The notes under the pieces are model-generated. The model saw nothing but the letters and a program-made list of their open reading frames with translations, did not search any database and was not told where the DNA came from. Positions 39,014-52,317 of a stretch of DNA of 64,000 nucleotides are shown here, piece by piece; within the stretch, counting starts at the first letter, position 1, and every line of letters starts with the position of its first letter. Origin of the DNA: Candidatus Thorarchaeota archaeon. GTDB lineage: Archaea; Asgardarchaeota; Thorarchaeia; Thorarchaeales; Thorarchaeaceae. The position numbers and the translations under genes are program-made. The stretch is taken from NCBI GenBank assembly GCA_019057475.1, contig DXJO01000052.1, positions 1 through 64,000 of the forward strand, in the 5' to 3' direction.

Positions 39014-40012
39014 GTGAAGTTACTTCATTACTTCATACTTTCTCCTTTAAATACTTCACTTCTTCCCATAGTGCAGTACTTTCTGATAAATTCTCTGGTG
39101 GACTTTATGATTAGAAGTAAGAAACCATACGCCTTCTACATACTCGTTGGTGCTCTTGGCGTGATTGTGATGGCAGCACTCTACTGTGTGGGTAGTGTGT
39201 GCATAGATGGGCTGTCATTCGAAACGGGACTGGGAATTCTCACGATAGCGGTTGGCGCGCTGGCGTTGAGAGAACGCGGATCTGAGAGAGGAATTATTCA
39301 TCGCCTGTGTATCTTGGTGCCTCTGGGTGCAATCATTCTGTTTCCGGTGGGACAAATCATTCACTCGGGGGTTGAAGCCTTTCTGACTATTGGACTTGCT
39401 CCGCTTGCAGTCTTGACACTCTTTGCAGTTCCTCAAGTCGCTCTAGGCATAATCTTGGTTAGGAATAATGAATTCGTGTCTGGAGAAGACAGGCCGGTAC
39501 CGGGCTCCATGTTCAGGATGATGTCAATCTTTCTCAGGGTTCGTGAACCATTCAAGAAGCCTATGCAGCGGCTGCAAAAGGTTGGACTGCAGGAGGGACA
39601 GACAGTCCTAGACTATGGGTGCGGGATAGGGAGCTATGCCATTCCTGCCTCAAAGATTGTGGGGGCGAGCGGCAAGGTCTACGCTCTAGATATTCACCCA
39701 ATGGCAGTTGAACGAGTCAAGAAGAGGGCTGAGAAGATTGGTCTCTCGAATGTTCACACGATTCTCTCGAACATTGATACAAGTCTGCCAGACAATAGTG
39801 TAGATGTTATCTTGCTCTATGATGTTCTCCAAATAATCAAGAACAGAGATGGCTTGCTACAGGAGTTCCACAGAGTGCTCAAGCCGTCAGGATTCGTTTC
39901 AGTCGACTCGGACCACCTGCGACCTGAAGAAGTTCAGGATGTCTTTGCCAGTACAGGCCTGTTCTCGCAGGTTGATTGTGAGAATGGACTGCTCAAGTTC
40001 ATGAAACTATGA
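39014..40012 (+). CDS. Membrane-anchored class I SAM methyltransferase
   Basis: N-terminal TM helices, VLDYGCGIG, RVLKPSG; start probably at 39107. Confidence 0.8.
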   Translation: MKLLHYFILSPLNTSLLPIVQYFLINSLVDFMIRSKKPYAFYILVGALGVIVMAALYCVGSVCIDGLSFETGLGILTIAVGALALRERGSERGIIHRLCILVPLGAIILFPVGQIIHSGVEAFLTIGLAPLAVLTLFAVPQVALGIILVRNNEFVSGEDRPVPGSMFRMMSIFLRVREPFKKPMQRLQKVGLQEGQTVLDYGCGIGSYAIPASKIVGASGKVYALDIHPMAVERVKKRAEKIGLSNVHTILSNIDTSLPDNSVDVILLYDVLQIIKNRDGLLQEFHRVLKPSGFVSVDSDHLRPEEVQDVFASTGLFSQVDCENGLLKFMKL

Positions 40013-40538
40013 ATGACTCGTTGCAGACGCTGCAGGTGATTGTTTCTCCCTTGACTGCAATGCGTTTCATCTCTGTCCTGCAATAGGGGCATGAGGCAAT
40101 GGTCTTTGGAGCCGGTCCTGTGCCCGTGCCAAGCATGAAGTCGCCCGAGTCGTGGTCGATGCGGCCTGATAATTCACGGCCGTCTAGTAGGTCCTGAAGT
40201 ATGCGGGTGACATTGGCAGCTGACACACCAGAGTCCTGTGCGATGCGCTCTATGGGGAGTCTACGCATGTCTTGAACGACCTTTCTTACGGCAGTGACCG
40301 GGTCTGTCATGGTTTCCTTGCCGGCAATCATGGTTGGCGCTTCTGGAGCTGGTTTCAGAGTCGCTCTTGCAGTCGCAAGACCTGTCGGTTCACCACCTGC
40401 AAGCTCAAGTTTGGCTCTTAGATCCGCAACTCTTGTTTTGTAGTCGTCTTCTGATACAAGGCCACGCATGTAGTCGAGATCGAGGTCTTTGATGGCTGCT
40501 TCAATCTTCTTGGCGTCGTCATGTGGTGGTTCCGTCAT
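39999..40538 (-). CDS. SHOCT-like plus PCI-type winged helix plus zinc ribbon protein
   Basis: GLVSEDDY; IERIAQ...LQDLLDGRELSGRID; CPYC...CSVC. Confidence 0.7.
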   Translation of the reverse strand: MTEPPHDDAKKIEAAIKDLDLDYMRGLVSEDDYKTRVADLRAKLELAGGEPTGLATARATLKPAPEAPTMIAGKETMTDPVTAVRKVVQDMRRLPIERIAQDSGVSAANVTRILQDLLDGRELSGRIDHDSGDFMLGTGTGPAPKTIASCPYCRTEMKRIAVKGETITCSVCNESFIVS

Positions 40539-40707
40539 TTCAAGAGGTCTCCTAGTTCAATACTGCCAACCTGTCGTGCCATTTCAATATATGTCGAATG
40601 GAATCACTCGGATACGTTCAGGCGAAATTGATGAGATTCAGCGCACTCGAATGATCGCGGAGGGTAAATAGTATGGTCATCACATCAATATAATTGCATA
40701 CTAGGAG

Positions 40708-41898
40708 ATGCGCAGCACGCCAAATGCATTGCTTGTTCAGCCCAGATTTCCCACCCCCCGCAAGAGCAAGAACCACAAGGATGTCTTACCTATAGGGTTG
40801 CTGAAATTGGGGGCGTGGTACAAGAGCAGAGGATGGAAAGTTAGACTCGTTCATGGGAATGAATTATTGACAGACTTCGAACCGGACCATATACTGGTTA
40901 CATCCTTGTTCACATACTGGTCAGAGTATGTCGCAGAAGCAGCGCGATACTACCGATCATTGTTTCCACGTGCAAAATTGCTTGTAGGTGGCATCTATGC
41001 ATCTCTTCTGCCTGAGGACTGCAAAAGGCGAACTGGTGCAGATGAGGTGTTTGTTGGTGTGCATCCTGAGGCAGAAAAATTCGAGGCTGATTACAGTCTC
41101 CTTGATGAAGAACTGGACTATCAGATACTCCATGCGTCAAGAGGCTGCATAAGACGGTGCAAATTCTGTTTCACTTGGAAGCTCGAACCTGAGTACAAGG
41201 CGGTTTGTTCCCTTGATGATAGAATCCACAAGAACAAGGTGGTCCTTTATGATAACAACTTCCTTGCCAACCCGTGCATCAATCAACTCTTGGAGGAGCT
41301 TGCTGAAGTTCGTGTGAACCAAAGAGTAGTTCATTACGAATGTCAAAGTGGATTTGATGGACGCTTGCTGACTTCGAAACTCTCGTCGTTGTTGAAACGG
41401 GCGCGTTTCATCAATCCAAGGATTGCTTGGGACGGACGCTTTGCAGAGGTAAAGCGAATACATGAGCAGATCGAACTACTCATGGATGCTGGATACAGCT
41501 CGAAATCCATCTCAGTCTTCATGCTCTACAACTGGAACATCTCCTTTAACGAGATGGAACGGAAACGGCTGAAATGCTGGGAGTGGAAAGTCCAAATAAC
41601 GGACTGCCGCTTTCGGCCGATGCGTCAGCTCTATGATCGGTTTAATGCTAGGAAAAACCAGACAGTGCTTGACTATTTCATTCACGAAACGTGGACTGAT
41701 GAACAAGTGAAGCGATTTCGGAAGAATGTCCGGCGGCAGAATATCTGTATTCGACATGGCCTTAGGTTTCATTCTCCCATTCTTGAGCGGAAAGGTCTGC
41801 CGAAAGATGAGATCTCATATCTGAAGAATGCCCCCATCGATATGGTTAGATCTAGGTTAACTGATGCGTGGTTTCCAAGCGAAAGTCAAGCAATCTAA
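40708..41898 (+). CDS. B12-binding-domain radical SAM enzyme, paralog 1
   Basis: LPIGLLKLGAW, TSLFTY, GGIYASL, SRGCIRRCKFC, YDNNFL. Confidence 0.88.
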   Translation: MRSTPNALLVQPRFPTPRKSKNHKDVLPIGLLKLGAWYKSRGWKVRLVHGNELLTDFEPDHILVTSLFTYWSEYVAEAARYYRSLFPRAKLLVGGIYASLLPEDCKRRTGADEVFVGVHPEAEKFEADYSLLDEELDYQILHASRGCIRRCKFCFTWKLEPEYKAVCSLDDRIHKNKVVLYDNNFLANPCINQLLEELAEVRVNQRVVHYECQSGFDGRLLTSKLSSLLKRARFINPRIAWDGRFAEVKRIHEQIELLMDAGYSSKSISVFMLYNWNISFNEMERKRLKCWEWKVQITDCRFRPMRQLYDRFNARKNQTVLDYFIHETWTDEQVKRFRKNVRRQNICIRHGLRFHSPILERKGLPKDEISYLKNAPIDMVRSRLTDAWFPSESQAI

Positions 41899-41987
41899 CG
41901 GTTGCCTGCATGAATCAATTATGTGACACGATCGATACTCTTATCAAACTAAGCGAAATCCGCTTCGTGATAACTCGGTGAGGGAGA

Positions 41988-43367
41988 TTGAAAGGAGTAA
42001 CTCAAAGGCCCGTACGGCCCAAACGCACGAGTACTCGCATTCTCCTTGTCGAACCAGAATTCCCGTTGCCTACGAAAAGCAAGAATCACAGCAACTTCCT
42101 CCCGATAGGACTACTAAAGATAGGCGCTTGGCTTGAAGATAAGAGGTTTGAAGTTGAACTAGTGCGCGGCAATAAACCAGAAGATTCACTTGACTTCAAA
42201 CCTGATGAGGTTTGGATAACATCACTCTTCACTTACTGGTCCAAGTATGTGATTGACACAGCCAAACACTACAAATCATTCTCAAACAAGCCTCGCATTG
42301 TCATAGGTGGAATATACGCTAGCCTCATGGAAGAACACTGCAAGAAGCATACAGGTTGCAATGTAGTATTCAAGGGGGTGCATCCTATCGCAGAACAATA
42401 CTATCCCAAGTATCGCTTACTCGGAAACGACCTCAACTACCAGATTGTTCACGCATCAAGAGGCTGTATTCACAAGTGCAAGTTCTGTGGCGTTCACATC
42501 ATAGAATCAGGCGGATTAATGTCCGAAAGGAGCATTCTTCCACTGATTGCTAAACCCAAGAAAGGCAGTAAGAAAATCTGTGAGATTGATCTCAAATCCA
42601 ACGATTACGTCATCGAGAAGAAAAACTTGGTTTTTTATGACAATAACCTACTGGCAAATGAGAATATAGAATCTATTCTTGAGGAGTTAGTATTTCTGAA
42701 AAAGACACGAAAAATAGGGTGGTGTGAGTCTCAGAGCGGTTTTGATGGTCGAGTCATGCAGAAGAAGCCTCATCTGGCTCTGTTGCTCAAGACGGCTGGA
42801 TTCAAGAACCCAAGAGTTGCTTGGGATTGGGGGTTGAATCAGGGGGTGAGCATCAAGTTACAGATTGATTTACTCTTGGATGCCGGTTATACATCCAAGG
42901 AAATTTACGTTTTCATGCTTTACAACTGGAGCATATCTTTCGAGGAGATGGAACAGAAGAGGATGAAGTGCTACGAATGGAAGGTCCAGATTGCAGATTG
43001 CAGGTTTCGCCCACTAGACCAAGCTTATGATGAATATCGCCCTGGAAAACGGAACCAGATTGAAGGGTACTATGTCCACGAGAAGAAAGGGTGGACCGAT
43101 GATTTGGTAAAGCAATTCCGGAGGAATGTAAGGCGTCAAAATATATGCATAAGACATGGGTTTCCGTTCTATTCCAGACAATTCGAAACAAAGCAGGCCT
43201 TGAAAGAAGAAATACAGATGGTGAAATTGGCAGGAACACTTGAAGAGAAGAAAATGGTCATGAGAGTGTTGGGCTATGAATGCTGGGACCCGATGAACAT
43301 CACCTACCCTAAAACAAGTACAGCTGGGCTTGTATCCGCTCAAACTGAAGTTCAAGAACATGTGTGA
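41988..43367 (+). CDS. B12-binding-domain radical SAM enzyme, paralog 2
   Basis: LPIGLLKIGAW, TSLFTYW, GGIYASL, SRGCIHKCKFC, YDNNLL. Confidence 0.88.
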   Translation: MKGVTQRPVRPKRTSTRILLVEPEFPLPTKSKNHSNFLPIGLLKIGAWLEDKRFEVELVRGNKPEDSLDFKPDEVWITSLFTYWSKYVIDTAKHYKSFSNKPRIVIGGIYASLMEEHCKKHTGCNVVFKGVHPIAEQYYPKYRLLGNDLNYQIVHASRGCIHKCKFCGVHIIESGGLMSERSILPLIAKPKKGSKKICEIDLKSNDYVIEKKNLVFYDNNLLANENIESILEELVFLKKTRKIGWCESQSGFDGRVMQKKPHLALLLKTAGFKNPRVAWDWGLNQGVSIKLQIDLLLDAGYTSKEIYVFMLYNWSISFEEMEQKRMKCYEWKVQIADCRFRPLDQAYDEYRPGKRNQIEGYYVHEKKGWTDDLVKQFRRNVRRQNICIRHGFPFYSRQFETKQALKEEIQMVKLAGTLEEKKMVMRVLGYECWDPMNITYPKTSTAGLVSAQTEVQEHV

Positions 43368-43370
43368 CCT

Positions 43371-44534
43371 CTACTCGGATCCTCCGGGTCTGCTTCTCCT
43401 TGGTGCAACCTTGATCATTAAGGATCTCTCTTCAAAGTCGTCGACAAAGACTGCCTCTCCCGTTCTGGCAATCTTCTCAATAAACACTTTCAATTCACTC
43501 CCCATGTAATCTTTCGTAAGCGCATTAAGGGCCGATTTATCGACCCGTGTTGTCATCGAATGTGATAGTATAACATCCCACTGGGAAAGAACCTCCATGT
43601 CCAGTGCTGATGGCTGTTGAGATGCTATCACCATGGATAGGCCTGGCTGGCGCCCTTCCTTTACCCATCTAATGATCCCTTCCTTTGCTAAAGACGATTT
43701 GCCAGAAGGTGCAAACTGATGAGCTTCGTCGATGAAAAGCCAGATTCTAGGCACATCTGAGGAAAGTTCCAGCTCTTCTCTTCTCCTCGCAATTGAACGT
43801 CTACTAAACAGGTCTCTCACGAGTGTGGAAACAAAAAGAGGGCGTCGTCCGTATCGGCCCGAGTGTATAACGCTCAGATCAAGAACGTTGATATGATCCA
43901 TCGAAAGAACGTCAAGAAGGCTTCGGTAAGTGCCTTCTGAGAACATACCCCATGTCTGAGCGATGTCGAGTTTGTTGGACAGTGCGTCTTTTGTGGTGCT
44001 TCCAGCCCTGCTGTCAGATCCGATTACGTCAATAAGATCTGGAATGAAGAAATTATTCCCCCACTTCTTCTTACATTTCAAATGGGCTTTTGTGATGGCA
44101 ATCCCCATGGGGTCGTTTACCCCGAAACCAAAGGTTTCACACCACCCCTCGGGAGAAACGTCACTAGGATTCAGCTCAAGTGACTTGAATTCCACGTCGC
44201 GCTTCTCCATTTCCTTGATTACGTCCTCCCCGCCATATCGTTCAACGGGGTTTCCTGGAACAAGCAAGCGAGTGGCAAACCCCCTGGCATTCATACCCCA
44301 ACTCCATAAGAGCTCATTCTGTGGCTCATTGGGTTGTGACATTGTGTGGAAGATTCCCATAGGATCCACGACCACTGCCAATGACTTACCTTGCAGCACC
44401 AACTCCTCAGCCAAGGTACCCATAGAATACGATTTCCCACTACCACGTTTTCCACAGACCACTATCACTCTACTCTTAGAGTCATCAATGTAGACATCCT
44501 CATCATTCTCAAGGTTTCTTCCAACGCGCAACAT
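43371..44534 (-). CDS. HerA/FtsK-like (DUF87) ATPase
   Basis: CGKRGSGKS, VVDPMG, FIDEAHQF, KEGRQPG, ASQQPS. Confidence 0.88.
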   Translation of the reverse strand: MLRVGRNLENDEDVYIDDSKSRVIVVCGKRGSGKSYSMGTLAEELVLQGKSLAVVVDPMGIFHTMSQPNEPQNELLWSWGMNARGFATRLLVPGNPVERYGGEDVIKEMEKRDVEFKSLELNPSDVSPEGWCETFGFGVNDPMGIAITKAHLKCKKKWGNNFFIPDLIDVIGSDSRAGSTTKDALSNKLDIAQTWGMFSEGTYRSLLDVLSMDHINVLDLSVIHSGRYGRRPLFVSTLVRDLFSRRSIARRREELELSSDVPRIWLFIDEAHQFAPSGKSSLAKEGIIRWVKEGRQPGLSMVIASQQPSALDMEVLSQWDVILSHSMTTRVDKSALNALTKDYMGSELKVFIEKIARTGEAVFVDDFEERSLMIKVAPRRSRPGGSE

Positions 44535-44535
44535 T

Positions 44536-45549
44536 TTATCTCACCTCTATTTCCAAGAAAGGCACAAATGACTCGTAGATCGAAACACCTCCATGAACAC
44601 CCCATTCGTTCTTCCTAAGCTTTCTGAACACGAATGGGTATTTGAGAAGCGAGTGACTGCGGCCATTCCTCTCCCATACAATGAATCTTGATCCGAAATG
44701 GCATCCTACCAAATGACGCATTCTGCTAGCTCTGCCATAATTGAATACTTCAAAGTCTGATTTGGTTCCTACAGGTGGTCGCCACCAGATCCCATGGTCG
44801 GAAGTCAAGAAGAGGTTGTAGGATAAACCTCGCCCATTGAACTCTCTAATCAACTTGGATAAGAACACTCCAAATATCTGCCTGACTATTGTGTCTACTT
44901 GAGGTCGCCCATGATACCGATGAGAGAGCTGGTCATAACCCTCTAGCAGAATCTGGATGTAGCAGTTGTCCAACTCGTGGTGGGATAGTATCTGTAGAAC
45001 CTCATCGAATTCATCGATCTGATGCATATCTCTGGGTGCGAAACCATAGAAGATACTATTTGCCAATTCGTCATGACCTTTGCGACCCCAGTGCGAAAAA
45101 CCCAATCTTCTCTGATAGCCCTTCGCGTAGAGTTCGAGGGCGATTTTCCCATTCTGTGTTATATTCCTAAAACCATTTGGGGTCGTTGTCGGACCCGGAA
45201 CCAGACATGGCCTGACTTCTGGTATGCCAATGCAGTCGTAGTATGAGAGGCCGTCAACCAAAACGAGTACAACCACATCTGCACGTGACTTGCTGACTAT
45301 GTGATTCTTCACATCAAGCTGCGTGAACATTTGCTCACAGAGCTCGAAGTAACGTTCGCATAAGCTGGAGTTCAATCGGTTGTTGAACCAGTCTGGGTCA
45401 AACCTGACTGACGGAAAGAGGCGTTTCCAGTGCCCTGCGGGCTCTGTTATCAACATCCTTCGACCGTGAAGCCGCGACAATGGGTCGTCAAGCACCCCTT
45501 TGAGATCGACATCACCTCGAACAAGAATGGAGTTCTCTAGGTAGAGCAA
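44536..45549 (-). CDS. PglZ-like alkaline-phosphatase-superfamily protein
   Basis: LVLVDGLSY, PTTT, DQLSH, LTSDHG, HGGVS..E..VP. Confidence 0.8.
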   Translation of the reverse strand: MLYLENSILVRGDVDLKGVLDDPLSRLHGRRMLITEPAGHWKRLFPSVRFDPDWFNNRLNSSLCERYFELCEQMFTQLDVKNHIVSKSRADVVVLVLVDGLSYYDCIGIPEVRPCLVPGPTTTPNGFRNITQNGKIALELYAKGYQRRLGFSHWGRKGHDELANSIFYGFAPRDMHQIDEFDEVLQILSHHELDNCYIQILLEGYDQLSHRYHGRPQVDTIVRQIFGVFLSKLIREFNGRGLSYNLFLTSDHGIWWRPPVGTKSDFEVFNYGRASRMRHLVGCHFGSRFIVWERNGRSHSLLKYPFVFRKLRKNEWGVHGGVSIYESFVPFLEIEVR

Positions 45550-45611
45550 GAGGAGATCATTATCAGTGATAATTGGCAGATCGTTTGGGAATGTATCCTG
45601 AATCGTTCGAG

Positions 45612-48600
45612 CTACCTCCTCCTTGATATCAAAAGCCCAATCAGATTCTTCTTGAATAATGAAAGCACATTCCTCATGAATTCGTCCCAGCTGAATTCAT
45701 CGCCCTTTTCTTCCATCTCAGAAATAACTAGTTCACTGATGTCTATCTTGCTGACATCTCTGATCTTGTCCAGAAGTCGTTTCTCTGGTCTTGTTGCCGT
45801 GCCTGCCTCAACTAGATGCGCATACCCCTTTTTCGCATCCCCTATCGCTCGTGTCGCATTGTTCACTGATTCAGAAAGCTTAGTCACCATCTCGTCATTT
45901 CTAAAGATGAGCTTTTTCATACTGTCAGAAGTATTATCCAACAAGTCAGCCGCAACAGCAATACGATTGAGTTGATCAGAGCAATCTTTCCCAAGCACAA
46001 TCGCCGCGAATCTAAGATCGGTTCTGATTTTTTCCACGTCAGTCACAAGCTCACACACATAGTGTTCCATTTTCTCACGTGCTTCCACTTGCATGTTCTC
46101 AAGGGACTCAGCTGGTCCTTGATGGTCGTACATGGATCGCAATTTGTGGTGTGGCACACCGACATCCGAGAGGATTTGTTCTATCCTTGCCTTGTGTTTA
46201 TGAAACTCCTCTCTGCGACCGAATTCGTGTTTCTTTACTTCCTTCTCGATTTCCTCGAGCTTCATCATGTATATCTCGTAGTCCGAGAGCATGGAAAGCT
46301 TCATCGATCTCATTGCTCCCACGATATCTTGATTGAGCTCATCGAGGCGGAGCTTAAATCGGTCTTCTTGATGAACATTTTCCAAGTTAATGGCTGCTTT
46401 CTGCACTTCGTTGGCATTATTCATCAATGTCAGCCAGGAATCGAATTCCTGCGCATGTCTATCAAACTCATTCATTCTTGTATGTGTTTTCGATTCTTCT
46501 ATCTCGCCATGCTCAAGCAGTATGCTGATTCTATCTTGAACACTGTCTACCTCTTCAATTTCCTCAATTTCAGTTTTCAGGCGTTTCTTCTCCTTCTTCG
46601 CACCAATGACTATCTTGTGGAACTCGGTAAGCAGTATCTGCCTGCATGACTCTAGTTCACCAACCCAGCTCACGGTTCCCTTGACTTCGGAGTTTAGATA
46701 CCGTGGCATAATCCTGCTCATGAGACTCTCCATTGTTGAGTCATCTGACTCCAACTTTCCGAGAATCTTGGTTGTGGCCACGATAAGCTTCTCTTTTAGC
46801 TTGTCCTCAACCGCTCTTAACTCATCCTCGATTGAGTCAGTTTCAGAGATTGTGGAGGCGACTTCAATGTTCAGCTTCAGAGGAAGATCAGGGATTTCAG
46901 ATATCGCAGAACTCTCTATCACTGATTTGGACTCCGACAAGTGCCCCTCTAGGCTAGTCCGCCACAAGAGAAGCGCGTTCTTTCTTTCATCTACATTCTC
47001 GATGACGCGCTCCAGAATCTCATCTACCTTCAGCACCATCCCTCGGGCACAAAGAAGTTCAATAGCCGCATTGACTTCGCGTTTGATGTAGCCTCTCGAT
47101 TTACTCTCTTTCCAGACATCAATGACTCTTACATACGGAATTTCAAATCCCTTTTTCGAGCGCTTTTCCCCTTTCTCTAGTAGATTCAGAATCAAGTCCT
47201 CTAGGGGGTGCCTTCTCAATGTTATGACTAGGCAATCCGGCTCATCTGATTCAGCATACTCTAATAGACCTGCCATCGTATCAAGCCGGTTGCTCTGTGA
47301 TTGCCATTTCTTGGCCGCCACTATTATTCCCATCTCATCTTTTGTGATTGTGAATTCTCTACCACCTTTCTTCGCAGACGGGCGCACTCTTGAATCTTTA
47401 AGCAGATTGGTATACAGAGAGAGGGTTCGCTCCCATTGACTATTCATAATCATGGTATCATACTTGGGGTAAAGCATTGAACAAAGATCGTTTACGATTT
47501 CCTTTAGCGTGGAATCGCCGAAGATCGTAAGTCGCAATGATTTGGGCGTTTCGATTGACTCGCTGAAAAGGTGTGCTAACACCAAATCACCAAGACTTCG
47601 CAAGAAATATTCAACCCTTCCGACTTCGCTCTTTGGAATAAGTTCAACATTGTCACCCAGTGCATACATCATCCCAAGCACGAAGAGAACATCAATCTTC
47701 GTTTCCGGATACAAGCGAACAATCGGGATTGGTACTTCATATCCTAGAATCTTCTGCGGATTGAGTCTAATTCGGACACGATTTTTCTCAACGACAATGC
47801 TGCCATGGCTTGTGCTGGCCATTGTAAGGTCAAGAAGAATATCAACCACGATGCCTTCGAAGCTTTCCTCAATTAAGTCGTCTTCGTCGGCAGTCACAGT
47901 GATAAGTGCTTGACGAAATGGGTACCTTTCGCTAAACGCGCCCTCTTGAATGGTGCGGAATCCTCCCGAGTCTAGGTGCTCTGTTTCGATGGAACGCCAA
48001 GCGTTGGATATTTGCGCTCCTTTAGCTTCAGGAAATAGCCGAGGGATAATCCATGTTGAAAAAGATTGGAGGGCGTGACAAATCTGTTCATCAGTCCGAG
48101 CATAGACTCGCATGAAGTTCCTGAGCATCCGATCGTACGAAGGCTGGATTGCAGTATCATCAGTTGCAAACGCAGTTAATGTGAAGCCCTCGGAAAGCTC
48201 CACTATCATCTCCCCATAGAATTTGATCCTCACTTCTTCAAACGTCTTCTTGAATCCGTATTTCTCGATTGTTTGACCATTGCAGCCGTACATGGGATAT
48301 GCCGCAAGAAGTTTAATGAGACCTCCTCGATCTGCCTTTCCTTGAACCGCATCAAGTTGAAGCATATTACGAGTAGCCGAAACAAGCTGGGAATTCTTTG
48401 CAGAAATGAGATATCCATTAAGGAAATCATCGATCAGATCAATGGGTGTGTAGATCTTTTGCTTTTGAATGTAATTCTCAGCTACCCGTTTGAATGCCTC
48501 GATGACCCCTCTTGGACCTGCTCCTAATCCTCTTTTAAAACAGATCTGGGCAATGCTATCAAGAGTTTCAGACTCGACAACCTGCATCGCTGGAAATGAG

Positions 48601-49466
48601 AATATATCCGAGTACTTAGACCATAACTGGGTCGGGAACTGTCGGCTGTAGATATCTTCACACTGTACATAGATCTTGCGCGCCTTCATCCTATCGACTA
48701 TATCTGAACGCTGATCCAACAACAAAGTTAGTGTAGTCATTGGTATTCCAAAGACGATGCCATACATGCCCTTGCGGGAAATCAATCCATTGGCCAAGGC
48801 ATACAGATCTTCGTAGAATCGTGGCAAGCTCTCATAGCTATCCACAGTCCTCTGGAGTTCGTCTGTGAAGACTACCAGACCTGAATACCCTCCCTCCAAA
48901 GCTATGTTAGTCACCTCATCCATGAATCTGAGAATATCCGCGGGAGTTACGGATGTCAAGCGTGCAATCTCAGCTTTAGTGAGGTTTTCGAGAAGTTTCT
49001 GAGCATTCGCATCTATTTTCCTAGCAATTGATTCCAAGCTCTTATTCCTGATTTTCCCATATAGGGCGTCGAGCCTCTTCTTGAGTGCTGGTTTTCGACT
49101 GAACTCAAATCGACACCATCCATATATTCCGTCCACGAGTTCACCCGTACTCATCCAGGAGAAGGGAGGCACAGCAAGTATTCCCTCCCCCCTACAGCCC
49201 GCCCAGAGATGCACTAAGAAACTGGTCTTGCCATATCCGTAGTCACCAATGACTGCACCCACTGCAGCGCTCTTGTTTTGAGTAACCCATTTTACAAGAT
49301 TGTTGAAAACGGCATCGGATTCTCCGATTTCTATGTGAGTTGCATTGTGGACCTCATATATCCTCTTCACATCCGCTGGGATCTTTCTTAGCTGCTCGGC
49401 TTCAAACGTAGCAATGATCGTTTCCTTATCCCTGATTACCTTCAAGTTATCCAAAAAATTATTCAT
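45612..49466 (-). CDS. Large BrxC/BrxD-like P-loop ATPase with C-terminal coiled coil
   Basis: GDYGYGKT, VVFTDELQ, GPRG; long helical C-terminal half. Confidence 0.75.
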   Translation of the reverse strand: MNNFLDNLKVIRDKETIIATFEAEQLRKIPADVKRIYEVHNATHIEIGESDAVFNNLVKWVTQNKSAAVGAVIGDYGYGKTSFLVHLWAGCRGEGILAVPPFSWMSTGELVDGIYGWCRFEFSRKPALKKRLDALYGKIRNKSLESIARKIDANAQKLLENLTKAEIARLTSVTPADILRFMDEVTNIALEGGYSGLVVFTDELQRTVDSYESLPRFYEDLYALANGLISRKGMYGIVFGIPMTTLTLLLDQRSDIVDRMKARKIYVQCEDIYSRQFPTQLWSKYSDIFSFPAMQVVESETLDSIAQICFKRGLGAGPRGVIEAFKRVAENYIQKQKIYTPIDLIDDFLNGYLISAKNSQLVSATRNMLQLDAVQGKADRGGLIKLLAAYPMYGCNGQTIEKYGFKKTFEEVRIKFYGEMIVELSEGFTLTAFATDDTAIQPSYDRMLRNFMRVYARTDEQICHALQSFSTWIIPRLFPEAKGAQISNAWRSIETEHLDSGGFRTIQEGAFSERYPFRQALITVTADEDDLIEESFEGIVVDILLDLTMASTSHGSIVVEKNRVRIRLNPQKILGYEVPIPIVRLYPETKIDVLFVLGMMYALGDNVELIPKSEVGRVEYFLRSLGDLVLAHLFSESIETPKSLRLTIFGDSTLKEIVNDLCSMLYPKYDTMIMNSQWERTLSLYTNLLKDSRVRPSAKKGGREFTITKDEMGIIVAAKKWQSQSNRLDTMAGLLEYAESDEPDCLVITLRRHPLEDLILNLLEKGEKRSKKGFEIPYVRVIDVWKESKSRGYIKREVNAAIELLCARGMVLKVDEILERVIENVDERKNALLLWRTSLEGHLSESKSVIESSAISEIPDLPLKLNIEVASTISETDSIEDELRAVEDKLKEKLIVATTKILGKLESDDSTMESLMSRIMPRYLNSEVKGTVSWVGELESCRQILLTEFHKIVIGAKKEKKRLKTEIEEIEEVDSVQDRISILLEHGEIEESKTHTRMNEFDRHAQEFDSWLTLMNNANEVQKAAINLENVHQEDRFKLRLDELNQDIVGAMRSMKLSMLSDYEIYMMKLEEIEKEVKKHEFGRREEFHKHKARIEQILSDVGVPHHKLRSMYDHQGPAESLENMQVEAREKMEHYVCELVTDVEKIRTDLRFAAIVLGKDCSDQLNRIAVAADLLDNTSDSMKKLIFRNDEMVTKLSESVNNATRAIGDAKKGYAHLVEAGTATRPEKRLLDKIRDVSKIDISELVISEMEEKGDEFSWDEFMRNVLSLFKKNLIGLLISRRR

Positions 49467-49963
49467 TGTATCACCTCACAAGCTCTCACTAATTCCCATA
49501 GAGTATCATACTTCCTCTCGGGCACGAATAAATCGATCTTGAACAGATTGGAGCGTGCAATTGCAACGTCTTCTTGCGTAAGCTCAAGTTGGATCGCCCA
49601 CACATCATCTTCAACTCTCTTATCGCTAAGAGCAACAATCTGTTCAATTCCCTGAATTCTCATTTGGTTCAATATCCTCCTTGTGAACTCCCGCGAGTAC
49701 TCAAAGTCATCCAGAATTGCAGCCTCGGCGCCAATAGGCACACCCTTGAACGACTTGTAATAGCCACAGTTCCATGACCGAGCAAGAAGCCAACCCAAGA
49801 ATGTCTTGCCAACGCCGAAGTCCCCGTACACATTCAAGATAGCACCCCGACCGGGGCCTCTAGCATCTTGAACTTGCTTCAGTGTGCTCCGCTGGGAATC
49901 GGTCAACCAGTCTTCATTGAAGTGTTCTTTTATGAGGTCAATTGCACGGGTGAAAGCACTCAT
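49463..49963 (-). CDS. Small P-loop protein (BrxF-like)
   Basis: GDFGVGKT, AAILDD; ATG overlaps the upstream TAA. Confidence 0.7.
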   Translation of the reverse strand: MSAFTRAIDLIKEHFNEDWLTDSQRSTLKQVQDARGPGRGAILNVYGDFGVGKTFLGWLLARSWNCGYYKSFKGVPIGAEAAILDDFEYSREFTRRILNQMRIQGIEQIVALSDKRVEDDVWAIQLELTQEDVAIARSNLFKIDLFVPERKYDTLWELVRACEVIQ

Positions 49964-50826
49964 TATCCCTCGCCTCCCGGATTGTCCATTGTATAGGCCT
50001 TGTCTAGGAAAACGGACCTGCCCCACTGACTAGATTGCAATCGCACATTGAAATCCATGTCTAGGACAAGGGTGAGTATGTCGTCAAATACATCCAAAGA
50101 AACTAACCCCGTCCGACAGATTTCATCTATGCTATCATCAGTCAGTAAGAGCGGAGAACCCAGCTTGAGGTTCTTTCTTCCATATAACAGATTGATGCTA
50201 AGTGTGAGTAGTTCAGGTGAACAGAAGCGACGCCCTCGAGTTGTGGTTGTGCGACCAGCAATCACTTCTAGAAACGGGGGGGTTAGCTGCCCGACCCAAT
50301 TCTTAACCCCATCAATAGCGTAATGGCTCAAGGAAATTTCCTCAGCTCCCTCAAATGATTCTTCGGCGTTGAACAGGACCTGATCGATTATGTTCTTCTT
50401 GATTATCGGTCTTGGCCGCTGTTTCCAGAGCACATCACATATCTGCTGGTAAGTCCAAGAGAACGCCCTCTCCAGGCCGCCCTCTAGTTCGTAGGCTGTA
50501 TAATGGAGGAAATGAAGTGCCTCAGCAAATAGGCTCTGCTTGAATCTAGAGAGGTACCTTACTCTCTTGCCTTCAAGGGTCAGCTCATGCAAGAATGAAC
50601 TGGAGTTTCGAATCTCTGAGATCAACCCTAGGGCTTTCATCGTTTTCAAGTTTTTCCTCAAATAGTTTCTTTGCTGTACAGTTCTGAGTGTGGGCCAAAG
50701 CTGATTGCCGATCTGAGACCAGATTTCCGTGGTGTCAAGAAGACATTCTTCATCAAGGAGCTGGAGTATTGCCTTCACAGCAGCTGGTTTGACATTTTGT
50801 TCAATGTGCAGCTTGGGACTAGGCAA
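49963..50826 (-). CDS. Multi winged-helix protein (BrxA-like)
   Basis: MKALGLI...HELTLEG wHTH signature; TTG start after GGGGG. Confidence 0.6.
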   Translation of the reverse strand: MPSPKLHIEQNVKPAAVKAILQLLDEECLLDTTEIWSQIGNQLWPTLRTVQQRNYLRKNLKTMKALGLISEIRNSSSFLHELTLEGKRVRYLSRFKQSLFAEALHFLHYTAYELEGGLERAFSWTYQQICDVLWKQRPRPIIKKNIIDQVLFNAEESFEGAEEISLSHYAIDGVKNWVGQLTPPFLEVIAGRTTTTRGRRFCSPELLTLSINLLYGRKNLKLGSPLLLTDDSIDEICRTGLVSLDVFDDILTLVLDMDFNVRLQSSQWGRSVFLDKAYTMDNPGGEG

Positions 50827-51057
50827 TGTGATTCCCCCGGCCAAATGGTTTCTAATGTGGTAACAACTAGCGAAACCATCAAAGGCCACGCAGTCCTAGA
50901 GGGAATGCTCCGATCTAATAAGCATTGAGTGGACTTCTATCACATGATTTTGGAATCACGCATCTCTGTGTCATTCAGAAAGCTTCAAAGCACAATATAA
51001 TGGGCAGGATGGCTTTTCCGAGTTTCGTCGCTTCAATCAGTGACATTGTTAGGTGTA

Positions 51058-52317
51058 TCACAGAACCATCCTTACTGCCTTTAAGGGATGCATTCTCAGC
51101 ATTCTCTTGACCATTCGATTCCGTGACTGCTTGCTCGACTTCAATCCCATGATCATGTCGAACGTATAATCATTCATCACATCGTCATCATGCGCCATCT
51201 GGCAGACCAGCTCCATGCTCTTGATAGAGTGAAACATCATTCCCGCAAGAAACTTGGCCACCCCGAGGTCTTTGCCAAATGCATCCCGACATCTCCGATG
51301 ATAGGTCCTCGTACTCACGCCGCTAATACCAGACAGCATCTCCTTGGTGACCTCAGCAGCAATCTTACCTGACTCTATTGAGTAGTAGATACCCTCCCCG
51401 GTCACAGGAGATACGCAACCCGCAGCATCCCCAATCAACATGATTTTCTTGGAACACGTGTTCTCAATAAATCCACTCAACGGTACTCTAGCGGCCGTGA
51501 CCTCAGAGAGGTCGCACTTCACACCGTTTCTTTTCTCAAAGTCCGACACGAACGTCTTCCAGACACCTTTCAGGTCCTTCAGCTCACTAATCAGGGCGCC
51601 AAACCCAAGGCTGATCTCCTCTTTCTTGGCGAACGCCCAGCCATATCCATGGGGGAGCGCTCCGAAGTGGATCTCGGTCAATATCCGGTTATTTGGCCCT
51701 CCAAAGATACGCTCTATGTCCGAGGGGTCCATTGGTACGGAGGCCTCCATGCATAGCACAACCTCATCATCCTGCCAACGCGGCTTTATCCCTGTCTTCC
51801 TTGCTATTGTGCTGTTGACACCATCCGCCCCGGCCAAGAAACCGCCTCTGTACGATCCATCATCAGTAGTCACGATTACTCCGTCGGACTCCTCACTGAC
51901 ATCAACCACCTTAACACCTTGCAGGACCTCTGCACCAGCCTCCTCCGCTTTCTTAATTAGAAGATAGTCAAAGTCTTCGCGGCGAACTGTGAATCCGGTG
52001 GTTTCCTCTCTGGTATTTTCCACCACCAACCCCGAGGGCGAAAAGAGGCGAAGGCCACATTGCTCTCTCTCAACGACCGATGAGAAGTCAAAGTCAAGCT
52101 GGTCTCTCACCCTTAACGTAACATAGCCTGCACAGGCTTTCCTGCGGGGATGGTGTGCCTTCTCAAGCAATAAGACATCCAAACCCAGCTGAACAGCTTT
52201 CCGGGCACAAGTGGCACCGGCAGGTCCACCGCCAACAACAATCAGGTCATGGGTCACTCTACTCATCTCTCCTATGTTAGAGTTGACTGCGCACACGGAC
52301 TTTTGTTTCTGTTGCAT
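51058..52317 (-). CDS. Geranylgeranyl reductase family flavoprotein
   Basis: VGGGPAG, RRKACAG, GADG, GYGWAF, GDAAG, GEGI; true start probably ~52266. Confidence 0.9.
   Translation of the reverse strand: MQQKQKSVCAVNSNIGEMSRVTHDLIVVGGGPAGATCARKAVQLGLDVLLLEKAHHPRRKACAGYVTLRVRDQLDFDFSSVVEREQCGLRLFSPSGLVVENTREETTGFTVRREDFDYLLIKKAEEAGAEVLQGVKVVDVSEESDGVIVTTDDGSYRGGFLAGADGVNSTIARKTGIKPRWQDDEVVLCMEASVPMDPSDIERIFGGPNNRILTEIHFGALPHGYGWAFAKKEEISLGFGALISELKDLKGVWKTFVSDFEKRNGVKCDLSEVTAARVPLSGFIENTCSKKIMLIGDAAGCVSPVTGEGIYYSIESGKIAAEVTKEMLSGISGVSTRTYHRRCRDAFGKDLGVAKFLAGMMFHSIKSMELVCQMAHDDDVMNDYTFDMIMGLKSSKQSRNRMVKRMLRMHPLKAVRMVL

What the first reader, a model, noticed from the sequence alone, without database searches (positions are those of the whole stretch)
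40708..50889. BREX-like operon lacking a DNA methyltransferase, paired instead with two B12-radical SAM enzymes: candidate new modification/defence system
Seen: five tightly coupled minus-strand genes (wHTH protein; small P-loop protein; 1284-aa ATPase plus coiled coil; protein with PglZ motifs DGL/TSDHG/HGG; HerA-like ATPase). Their last stop lies 3 bp from the stop of two tandem plus-strand B12-binding radical SAM genes, and the block interrupts ordinary genes. No N6/N4/C5 methyltransferase, PAPS reductase, TGT or obvious nuclease is recognisable in it. Known: PglZ plus a BrxC-type ATPase is the BREX core, which normally comes with a self-marking module (PglX methyltransferase, or PAPS reductase in type 4). 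Class B cobalamin radical SAM enzymes methylate unactivated carbon or phosphorus. Inference: the radical SAM pair may fill the modification slot and install an unusual DNA mark, with HerA as translocase.
Basis: partly seen in the sequence, partly recalled or inferred. Interest (0 to 1): 0.88.

Follow-up and report, generated by a model that had tools for sequence, protein, structure and literature searches.

The report
BREX-related cassette with radical-SAM partner
A mobile seven-gene island in a sediment archaeon carries a predicted but untested BREX-related anti-virus machine, and in this branch of the family the usual DNA-marking enzymes are replaced by an unstudied vitamin-B12-type radical SAM enzyme, which may put a new chemical mark on DNA.

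Summary
The seven genes are real and form one accessory island. A relative has the empty site, and a 10.4-kb contig from another study spans both operons. The five-gene core is not new: it is the BREX-related capture (BRC) system predicted by Rakesh & Krishnan (NAR 2026), described with TGT/GNAT and without experiments. The radical SAM (rSAM) link is not in that paper. The window lies in a HerA clade (100/100) where 10 of 12 PglZ-bearing loci (7 of 9 picked blind) have an rSAM of one family beside or inside the operon, with no TGT or SspD seen. Of 41 BRC loci with TGT/GNAT, SspCD or DndB-like genes, none has this rSAM. The rSAMs were recruited repeatedly (AU p=0.004) and are not BRC-specific: they also flank Pbe-like, DISARM-like, GHKL and ParB-SNF2 cassettes and occur in viruses. 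This scan noted the rSAM family before on other DNA, and BRC with TGT or Ssp; my searches of its notes showed no BRC with rSAM. Best reading: a swappable DNA-marking enzyme (about 40%). Cobalamin use, substrate and defence activity are untested. New variant of a known kind.

The parts
40708..41898 (+). rSAM1, 396 aa: N-terminal cobalamin-binding-type Rossmann domain plus radical SAM partial barrel (C147/C151/C154); basic (pI 9.4). Its sub-lineage includes a GHKL-linked copy (L059).
   Evidence: phrog_9298 E 8e-34; pLDDT 92; AprD4 Z 23.6, MgmA Z 22.3
41988..43367 (+). rSAM2, 459 aa: same family, 50% identical to rSAM1. Sister to rSAMs in same-family genomes, one of which faces a PbeA/PbeC/DndE-like cassette.
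   Evidence: 100/96; L218
43371..44534 (-). Stand-alone HerA/FtsK-type ATPase, 387 aa (Walker A GKRGSGKS, Walker B DEAH); predicted DNA translocase
   Evidence: DUF87 E 1e-9; PADLOC HerA E 4e-22
44536..45606 (-). Short PglZ (alkaline-phosphatase/NPP fold) with D99, T123, D206, H210, D251, H252, H319 (numbered from TTG 45549); predicted nicking effector. Probable start ACG 45606; first standard start TTG 45549.
   Evidence: (PorX E 1e-10, BREX PglZ 9zn5 E 9e-9)
45612..49466 (-). BrxC-like ATPase with long helical/coiled-coil C-terminus, 1284 aa (Walker A GDYGYGKT, Walker B VVFTDE)
   Evidence: BrxC E 1e-4; 9 of 23 family members hit PF10923, best E 1e-6
49463..49963 (-). Small STAND-like NTPase with intact Walker A (BrxB counterpart), 166 aa from ATG 49963
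49963..50889 (-). wHTH-type protein in the BrxA/DUF4007 position; start uncertain (50889, 50844 or 50826)
   Evidence: searches (weak HTH hits only, E 0.1-0.7; no Pfam hit), position in 40 loci
40540..51060 (.). Accessory island holding both operons, inserted between the PCI-domain gene and the geranylgeranyl-reductase-like gene; no flanking repeats or integrase found
   Evidence: empty site in G064; uniform low depth 40751-50758 in three other studies; loose ends at about 40526 and 51070; X6 contig 40744-51199

Best explanation
This is a BRC-type restriction machine whose modification slot is filled by a swappable radical SAM enzyme. Shown here: gene content, intact catalytic motifs, island status, and the branch-specific exchange of TGT/GNAT, SspCD, DndB-like and rSAM genes beside the same core. 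Inferred step 1 (by analogy with BREX and the BRC paper, about 85%): the wHTH protein, small NTPase and BrxC-like ATPase assemble on DNA, HerA pumps DNA, and PglZ nicks DNA that lacks a self mark. Inferred step 2 (about 75%): the rSAM is a working partner of the core, not a passenger. Inferred step 3 (about 55-60% if step 2 holds): its substrate is the host's DNA. A 5'-deoxyadenosyl radical removes a hydrogen from an unactivated carbon of a nucleotide, and a cobalamin in the N-terminal domain most likely supplies a methyl group; a non-methylating rearrangement is the alternative. The enzyme has no variable recognition domain, so site choice would come from partner clamps (wHTH/ATPase here, DndE-like, DpdB-like or GHKL elsewhere). 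In this genome an in-operon rSAM appears to have been replaced by two facing copies from other cassettes.
For: HerA tree: the window is in a 100/100 clade of 13 sampled loci; 10 carry a family rSAM and none shows TGT, GNAT or SspD. Picked blind by PglZ/HerA similarity or contig length: 7 of 9 PglZ-bearing loci. In six loci the rSAM is co-oriented: overlapping the HerA stop (L166), 12 bp after it (L214), just after it (L110, L177), or in front of the wHTH gene where TGT sits in other branches (L169 33 bp, L188 overlapping). Control: 0 of 41 BRC loci with TGT/GNAT (30), SspCD (9) or DndB-like only (2) have the family within the fetched flanks, many from the same phyla. The partner rSAMs come from at least three sub-families, and the five clade-A ones are not one clade (AU p=0.0036), so this is repeated recruitment. 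All 72 scorable metagenome loci of the family lie within two genes of a DNA-handling cassette: GHKL 33, Pbe-like 20, ParB-SNF2 10, DISARM-like 4, DpdB-fusion 4, BRC 1. Viral copies lie beside a C5 DNA methylase, an exonuclease and a nucleotide kinase. 97% of clade-A proteins have pI above 8.5. Both operons travel as one unit.
Against: No biochemistry exists for BRC or for this rSAM family. The slot comparison rests on one HerA clade against two or three, so loci are not independent. TGT in BRC is itself only predicted to modify DNA, and some TGT-like enzymes modify proteins. The two best fold matches act on a sugar without methylating (AprD4, classed as 'unrelated' to B12 enzymes in PMC12931638) and on a protein (MgmA). 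In the window the rSAMs are on the opposite strand. In L001/L172/L179 they belong to a separate DpdB-GHKL-rSAM operon. L181 has a complete core with no family rSAM and L182 has only a distant B12-type rSAM. Sub-family B proteins are not basic (pI 5.4-7.2). Several loci are cut on one side (L110, L182), so absence of TGT there is not fully shown. A later check of an earlier scan report on a related GHKL-rSAM cassette gave the DNA-mark reading 12/100 (e1-2377112).
Confidence: 0.4

Rival explanations
1. The rSAM is an independent defence-island gene or remnant of another cassette (Pbe-like, GHKL) that lands beside BRC cores because such islands attract each other; the core works without a self mark.
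For: The family sits beside many unrelated cassettes. The window's two copies come from different sub-lineages and face the operon. L181 has a core without it. The BRC paper finds TGT/GNAT only in a subset of loci.
Against: 0 of 41 control BRC loci have it against 10 of 12 in one clade. It overlaps core genes in two different positions and was not seen with TGT/SspCD. The seven genes stay together in a strain about 9% diverged.
Confidence: 0.2
2. The rSAM is an effector, not a marker. It makes an antiviral nucleotide derivative (as viperins or OxsB-like enzymes do) or uses radical chemistry on incoming modified DNA so that PglZ can cut it.
For: Very high conservation across archaea, bacteria and viruses with no recognition domain fits a small, constant substrate. 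OxsB, which acts on an adenine nucleotide (own knowledge), has the same two-domain fold (Z 15).
Against: It does not explain the exchange with TGT and SspCD, or its place in viral DNA-metabolism clusters next to a C5 methylase.
Confidence: 0.2
3. The rSAM methylates or otherwise modifies a protein of the defence complex and so arms or restrains it.
For: The second-best fold match, MgmA, is a cobalamin-dependent protein methylase (Z 22.3). GNAT and some TGT-like enzymes also modify proteins.
Against: The same conserved enzyme pairs with unrelated proteins (Pbe-like, DISARM-like, GHKL, ParB-SNF2, BRC) that share DNA as substrate but no common protein target. One of the alternative slot fillers, SspCD, is a known DNA phosphorothioation module.
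Confidence: 0.12

Closest known systems
BREX-Related Capture (BRC) system, Rakesh & Krishnan, Nucleic Acids Res 2026, PMC12839542 (bioRxiv 10.1101/2025.10.09.681413); computational, 45 taxa
   Same: Five-gene core: wHTH, active STAND NTPase, BrxC-like ATPase, short PglZ, HerA. The same PglZ family includes Halogeometricum limi, which the paper lists as BRC.
   Different: No TGT or GNAT; radical SAM genes instead. The word 'radical' does not occur in the paper or in the six supplement files held as text.
BREX types 1 and 4
   Same: PglZ with catalytic residues, BrxC-like ATPase, BrxA- and BrxB-like partners
   Different: No PglX methyltransferase, PAPS reductase or BrxL; has HerA; PglZ is about 356 aa, against 640-890 aa in BREX models and structures.
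Dpd (7-deazaguanine) and Ssp/Dnd (phosphorothioate) modification modules
   Same: Non-methylase self marks paired with ATPase clamps. DpdB/DndB-like genes sit next to this rSAM family in several loci and plasmids.
   Different: Different chemistry; none of these genes is in the window's block.
Cobalamin-dependent radical SAM enzymes (MgmA/QCMT 9CCB, TsrM, TokK, OxsB) and AprD4
   Same: Rossmann domain plus partial barrel, CxxxCxxC
   Different: Under 16% identity, no profile hit in the PDB, only about 400 aa. I found no report of one acting on DNA.
Phage M6 gp53 radical SAM isomerase (PMC8989533)
   Same: A radical SAM enzyme that installs a DNA modification
   Different: SPL-like, phage-encoded, reshapes a glycine already attached to 5-hmdU; no link to a host restriction core.

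Membership tests
BRC system | HerA/FtsK translocase in the operon (universal) | tested here: met
   DUF87 E 1e-9, PADLOC HerA E 4e-22, 1 bp after the PglZ stop; 43-52% identical to HerA of TGT-bearing loci
BRC system | Short PglZ of the BRC family | tested here: met
   Fold matches PorX and BREX PglZ; 30% identical, E 3e-40, to the H. limi protein, a species listed under BRC PglZ in the supplement
BRC system | BrxC-like (DUF6079) AAA+ ATPase of about 1300 aa | tested here: met
   PADLOC BrxC E 1e-4; 9 of 23 members hit PF10923; 23% identical over its length to the H. limi protein. The DUF6079 model itself gave no hit
BRC system | Small STAND NTPase with intact Walker A | tested here: met
   GDFGVGKT; G73 and K74 invariant in 26 members
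BRC system | DUF4007/BrxA-like tripartite HTH protein | tested here: inconclusive
   Homologous to the gene at the same place in BRC loci, but no Pfam hit in 32 members and only weak HTH hits in the PDB; not folded
BRC system | TGT and GNAT (present in a subset only, so not required) | tested here: not met
   No hit in the block; the BRC-type TGT profile finds nothing above 40 bits in the genome; two PF01702 matches lie on other contigs
BREX types 1-3, 5, 6 | PglX/PglXI adenine methyltransferase | tested here: not met
BREX type 4 | PAPS reductase (BrxP) and BrxL | tested here: not met
Cobalamin-dependent (class B) radical SAM | CxxxCxxC cluster motif in a partial barrel | tested here: met
   C147/C151/C154 invariant in 47 sequences; fold
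Cobalamin-dependent (class B) radical SAM | N-terminal cobalamin-binding Rossmann domain | tested here: met
   PF02310 E 2.5e-7 and 7.9e-6 (31 and 26 bits, just under the 32.1 cut-off); invariant S66, G94, G95, G117; fold matches corrinoid proteins at Z 10-12
Cobalamin-dependent (class B) radical SAM | Binds cobalamin and transfers a methyl group | not testable with these tools
   The top fold match AprD4 has the same layout and is a dehydratase
Restriction-modification-like defence | Protection against phage or plasmid and a self mark on DNA | not testable with these tools
   Needs experiments

The most novel reading that the evidence does not exclude
This rSAM family (1,767 clusters at 90% identity found by one search) is an undescribed class of DNA-modifying enzyme. 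It writes a cobalamin-dependent radical mark, such as a C-methyl on an unactivated carbon of the sugar or base, and serves as the interchangeable self-marking unit of BRC, Pbe-like, DISARM-like, GHKL and ParB-SNF2 restriction modules; viruses carry it to copy the mark.
Probability: 0.3. Interest if true: 0.9.

Novelty: new variant of a known kind. Interest (0 to 1): 0.64.

Why it matters
Known cellular self marks on DNA are base methylation, phosphorothioation and 7-deazaguanine exchange. Radical SAM enzymes shown to act on DNA are rare (spore photoproduct lyase, phage M6 gp53; PMC8989533), and I found no cobalamin-dependent one. BRC gives an unusually clean natural comparison: one core, four mutually exclusive partners, of which one is a known DNA-modification module (SspCD) and two resemble Dpd/Dnd parts (TGT, DndB-like). 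That makes the rSAM a directly testable candidate for a new DNA modification chemistry. It also bears on how BREX-like machines tell self from non-self without a methyltransferase. Compact co-oriented six-gene versions (L166, L214, L188) are good test constructs.

Tried and rejected
PADLOC gave no system call: only weak BrxC, BrxD and PglZ hits, and no Ssp, Pbe or Dnd hit worth keeping in the core. Pfam gave no DUF4007 or DUF6079 hit. The PDB profile search for the rSAM family found nothing, so the residue under the cobalt could not be aligned; I make no claim about it. PDB hits to the ATPase were coiled-coil noise. No direct or inverted repeats mark the island ends. The class I methyltransferase at 39014-40012 was considered as the missing modifier and rejected: it is a UbiE-type small-molecule enzyme and lies outside the low-depth island. 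Two GHKL genes elsewhere in the genome (C22, C32) sit in their own operons with genes that look like methylases by eye, so they were not taken as rSAM partners in trans. The PglZ family was not found in 60 relatives searched; the rSAM family was found at E below 1e-69 in 5 of them. No RNA holder was listed. Whether the ACG start of PglZ varies between strains could not be read from the cut table. L055 has a frameshifted core; joined with X it falls outside the rSAM clade on a long branch, so it was not counted. L110 and L214 were found or chosen through the rSAM and are left out of the blind count. My motif scan for DNA methylases near other cassettes missed known type I genes, so those counts are not used. 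Literature searches found no paper on this rSAM family in defence; one older paper I recalled on predicted DNA base modifications could not be fetched by the id I tried, so prior prediction there is not excluded. No complex prediction was run, as no binding claim is made.
Full report
Observation. The seven ORFs are present as described. Two plus-strand genes, 40708-41898 and 41988-43367, encode 50% identical proteins with a weak PF02310 hit, an intact CxxxCxxC and a strong hit to phrog_9298. Five minus-strand genes encode a wHTH-type protein, a 166-aa P-loop protein, a 1284-aa ATPase, a short PglZ and a HerA. They are tightly coupled, and the HerA and rSAM2 stops are 3 bp apart. No DNA methylase, PAPS reductase, TGT or GNAT is in the block. 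PglZ keeps its metal and nucleophile residues and folds like PorX and BREX PglZ. Its probable start is an ACG at 45606, where close homologues have ATG.

It is one island. In G064, of the same family, the two flanking genes are 127 bp apart with both sides syntenic. In three other studies contig depth over 40751-50758 is flat and several-fold below the flanks, across both operons alike. One 10,462-nt contig covers 40744-51199 at about 91% identity. The PglZ family was not found in 60 relatives. From gene content and the genome sizes of relatives the host is probably an Asgard archaeon (Thorarchaeia); this is my inference, not a tool result.

The core is known. Rakesh & Krishnan describe BRC systems: PglZ, a BrxC-like ATPase, an active STAND NTPase, a DUF4007-like HTH protein and HerA, with TGT and GNAT in a subset, in 45 taxa, on computational grounds (PMC12839542). 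My PglZ profile retrieved 58 genome loci with the same gene order, including Halogeometricum limi, which the paper's supplement lists as BRC. Neither the paper nor the supplement files held as text mention radical SAM enzymes.

The partner changes with the HerA branch. Of 40 genome loci where the region before the wHTH gene is visible, 27 have TGT (with GNAT), 9 have SspC-SspD, 2 have only a DndB-like gene, 1 has rSAMs and 1 is cut short. HerA relatives show a gap between 55-76% and 50-53% identity. The closer set forms a clade, 100/100 on the labelled tree. I fetched contexts across it. Ten of 12 PglZ-bearing loci carry a family rSAM: the window, L110, L166, L177 and L214 after HerA; L169 and L188 directly before the wHTH gene; L001, L172 and L179 as a facing DpdB-GHKL-rSAM-rSAM operon. 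L182 has a distant B12-type rSAM after HerA and L181 has none of the family. A PglZ-less variant (L184-L186, with BrxL in L185) has none. Leaving out the window and the two loci reached through the rSAM, the count is 7 of 9. None shows TGT, GNAT or SspD, and none of 41 loci with those genes or DndB-like genes shows the rSAM. This is one clade against a few, so it is not a statistical test. What adds weight is that the rSAMs come from at least three sub-families, the five clade-A ones are rejected as one clade (p-AU 0.0036), and they occupy three different positions.

The rSAM is wider than BRC. One search gave 1,767 clusters. Of 80 metagenome loci, all 72 that can be scored have a DNA-handling cassette within two genes: GHKL 33, PbeA/PbeC/DndE-like 20, ParB-SNF2 10, DISARM-like 4, DpdB-fusion 4, BRC 1. 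Eleven viral loci were found; six carry a C5 DNA methylase and six an exonuclease, within a DNA-metabolism cluster, and they fall into two groups of close relatives. A distant copy faces a NurA-HerA pair in Marinitoga camini virus 1, and another follows a DGQHR gene on a Mesorhizobium plasmid. In the window, rSAM2 is sister to copies in two same-family genomes, one facing a Pbe-like cassette in the same way, while rSAM1 belongs to another sub-lineage. So the pair was assembled from two sources.

Chemistry. The model (pLDDT 92) has a Rossmann domain and a partial barrel. The best matches are AprD4 (Z 23.6), MgmA (22.3), MiaB (19.5) and TsrM (17.7), all at 15% identity or less. The motif residues of the Rossmann domain, two extra cysteines (C300, C347) and three arginines (R338, R342, R349) are invariant in 47 sequences. 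Clade A is basic. The genome has other cobalamin-binding proteins. None of this shows cobalamin binding or a substrate. Known enzymes of this layout methylate carbon or phosphorus, contract rings or dehydrate (PMC12931638), and radical SAM enzymes shown to act on DNA are rare (PMC8989533).

Mechanism and odds. I read the core as a restriction machine in which HerA moves DNA past a PglZ nickase (inferred, about 85%), the rSAM as its working partner (about 75%), and host DNA as the rSAM's substrate (about 55-60% given that), roughly 40% overall. DNA is the one substrate shared by all the cassettes this enzyme joins, and one alternative filler of the slot is a known DNA-modification module. Rivals are a passenger gene (20%), an effector acting on nucleotides or invader DNA (20%) and a protein modifier (12%).

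Earlier notes of this scan. The rSAM family was reported with GHKL, ParB-SNF2, NurA-HerA and DISARM-like partners, and BRC with TGT or SspBCD. I confirmed those contexts in my own loci where stated. One later check gave the DNA-mark reading low odds for a related cassette, which kept my estimate down. I found no note joining BRC to the rSAM.

Verdict. Real, mobile and conserved. The core is an already predicted system; the rSAM-bearing branch is a new variant, and the rSAM family is the part worth testing. Interest 0.64.

Noticed in passing
L007, L017, L019, L022, L023, L030, L032-L034 (upstream of the wHTH gene): A separate BRC branch carries SspC and SspD (PADLOC E 0 and 7e-115) in the slot where others have TGT; PMC12839542 does not list this form in the passages read, and this scan noted it earlier (e1-900252).
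   Followed up: partly
L020, L025, L022: BRC loci with a DndB-like gene (about 428 aa) and a small partner gene next to the core; in L020 and L025 it is the only modifier-like gene.
   Followed up: partly
L184-L186: A variant of the window's HerA clade without PglZ: wHTH/STAND, ATPase and HerA directly joined, with BrxL and AbiE genes upstream in L185. About 22 HerA clusters belong to this sub-branch.
   Followed up: partly
L001:13742-18906, L172:12281-18327, L179:13195-19251: A conserved four-gene operon DpdB/DndB-like, GHKL ATPase, rSAM-like protein without CxxxCxxC, intact rSAM; an active/inactive rSAM pair (the DpdB-like gene is not seen in L001).
   Followed up: partly
window 45606 (- strand): PglZ appears to start at ACG where close homologues have ATG; a non-standard start, a silencing change in the effector, or an assembly error.
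   Followed up: partly
L011-L053 (for example L049:245-2812): Many Chloroflexota TGT-type BRC loci begin with a 700-1000 aa protein holding RNA polymerase alpha-CTD repeats, sigma-70 region 4 and HARE-HTH domains (17 loci).
   Followed up: no
G000 C22:21048-25655 and C32:444-4688: Two similar operons elsewhere in this genome: GHKL ATPase plus two 250-aa genes and a gene that looks like a DNA methylase by eye.
   Followed up: no
L220 (G038) and L221 (G058): Same-phylum genomes carry the rSAM after a Pbe-like cassette (G038) and after a ParB-SNF2 cassette that faces two genes of DISARM-like size (G058).
   Followed up: partly
window 39999-40538: A 179-aa protein with a CdvA-like coiled coil (weak), a PCI domain and a C-terminal zinc finger, found in 26 of 40 family genomes; the island sits at its 5' side.
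   Followed up: no
L224:4995-8821 (Marinitoga camini virus 1): A distant rSAM of this family (UF08_54, annotated hypothetical) faces a NurA-HerA pair, 35 bp between the stops.
   Followed up: partly
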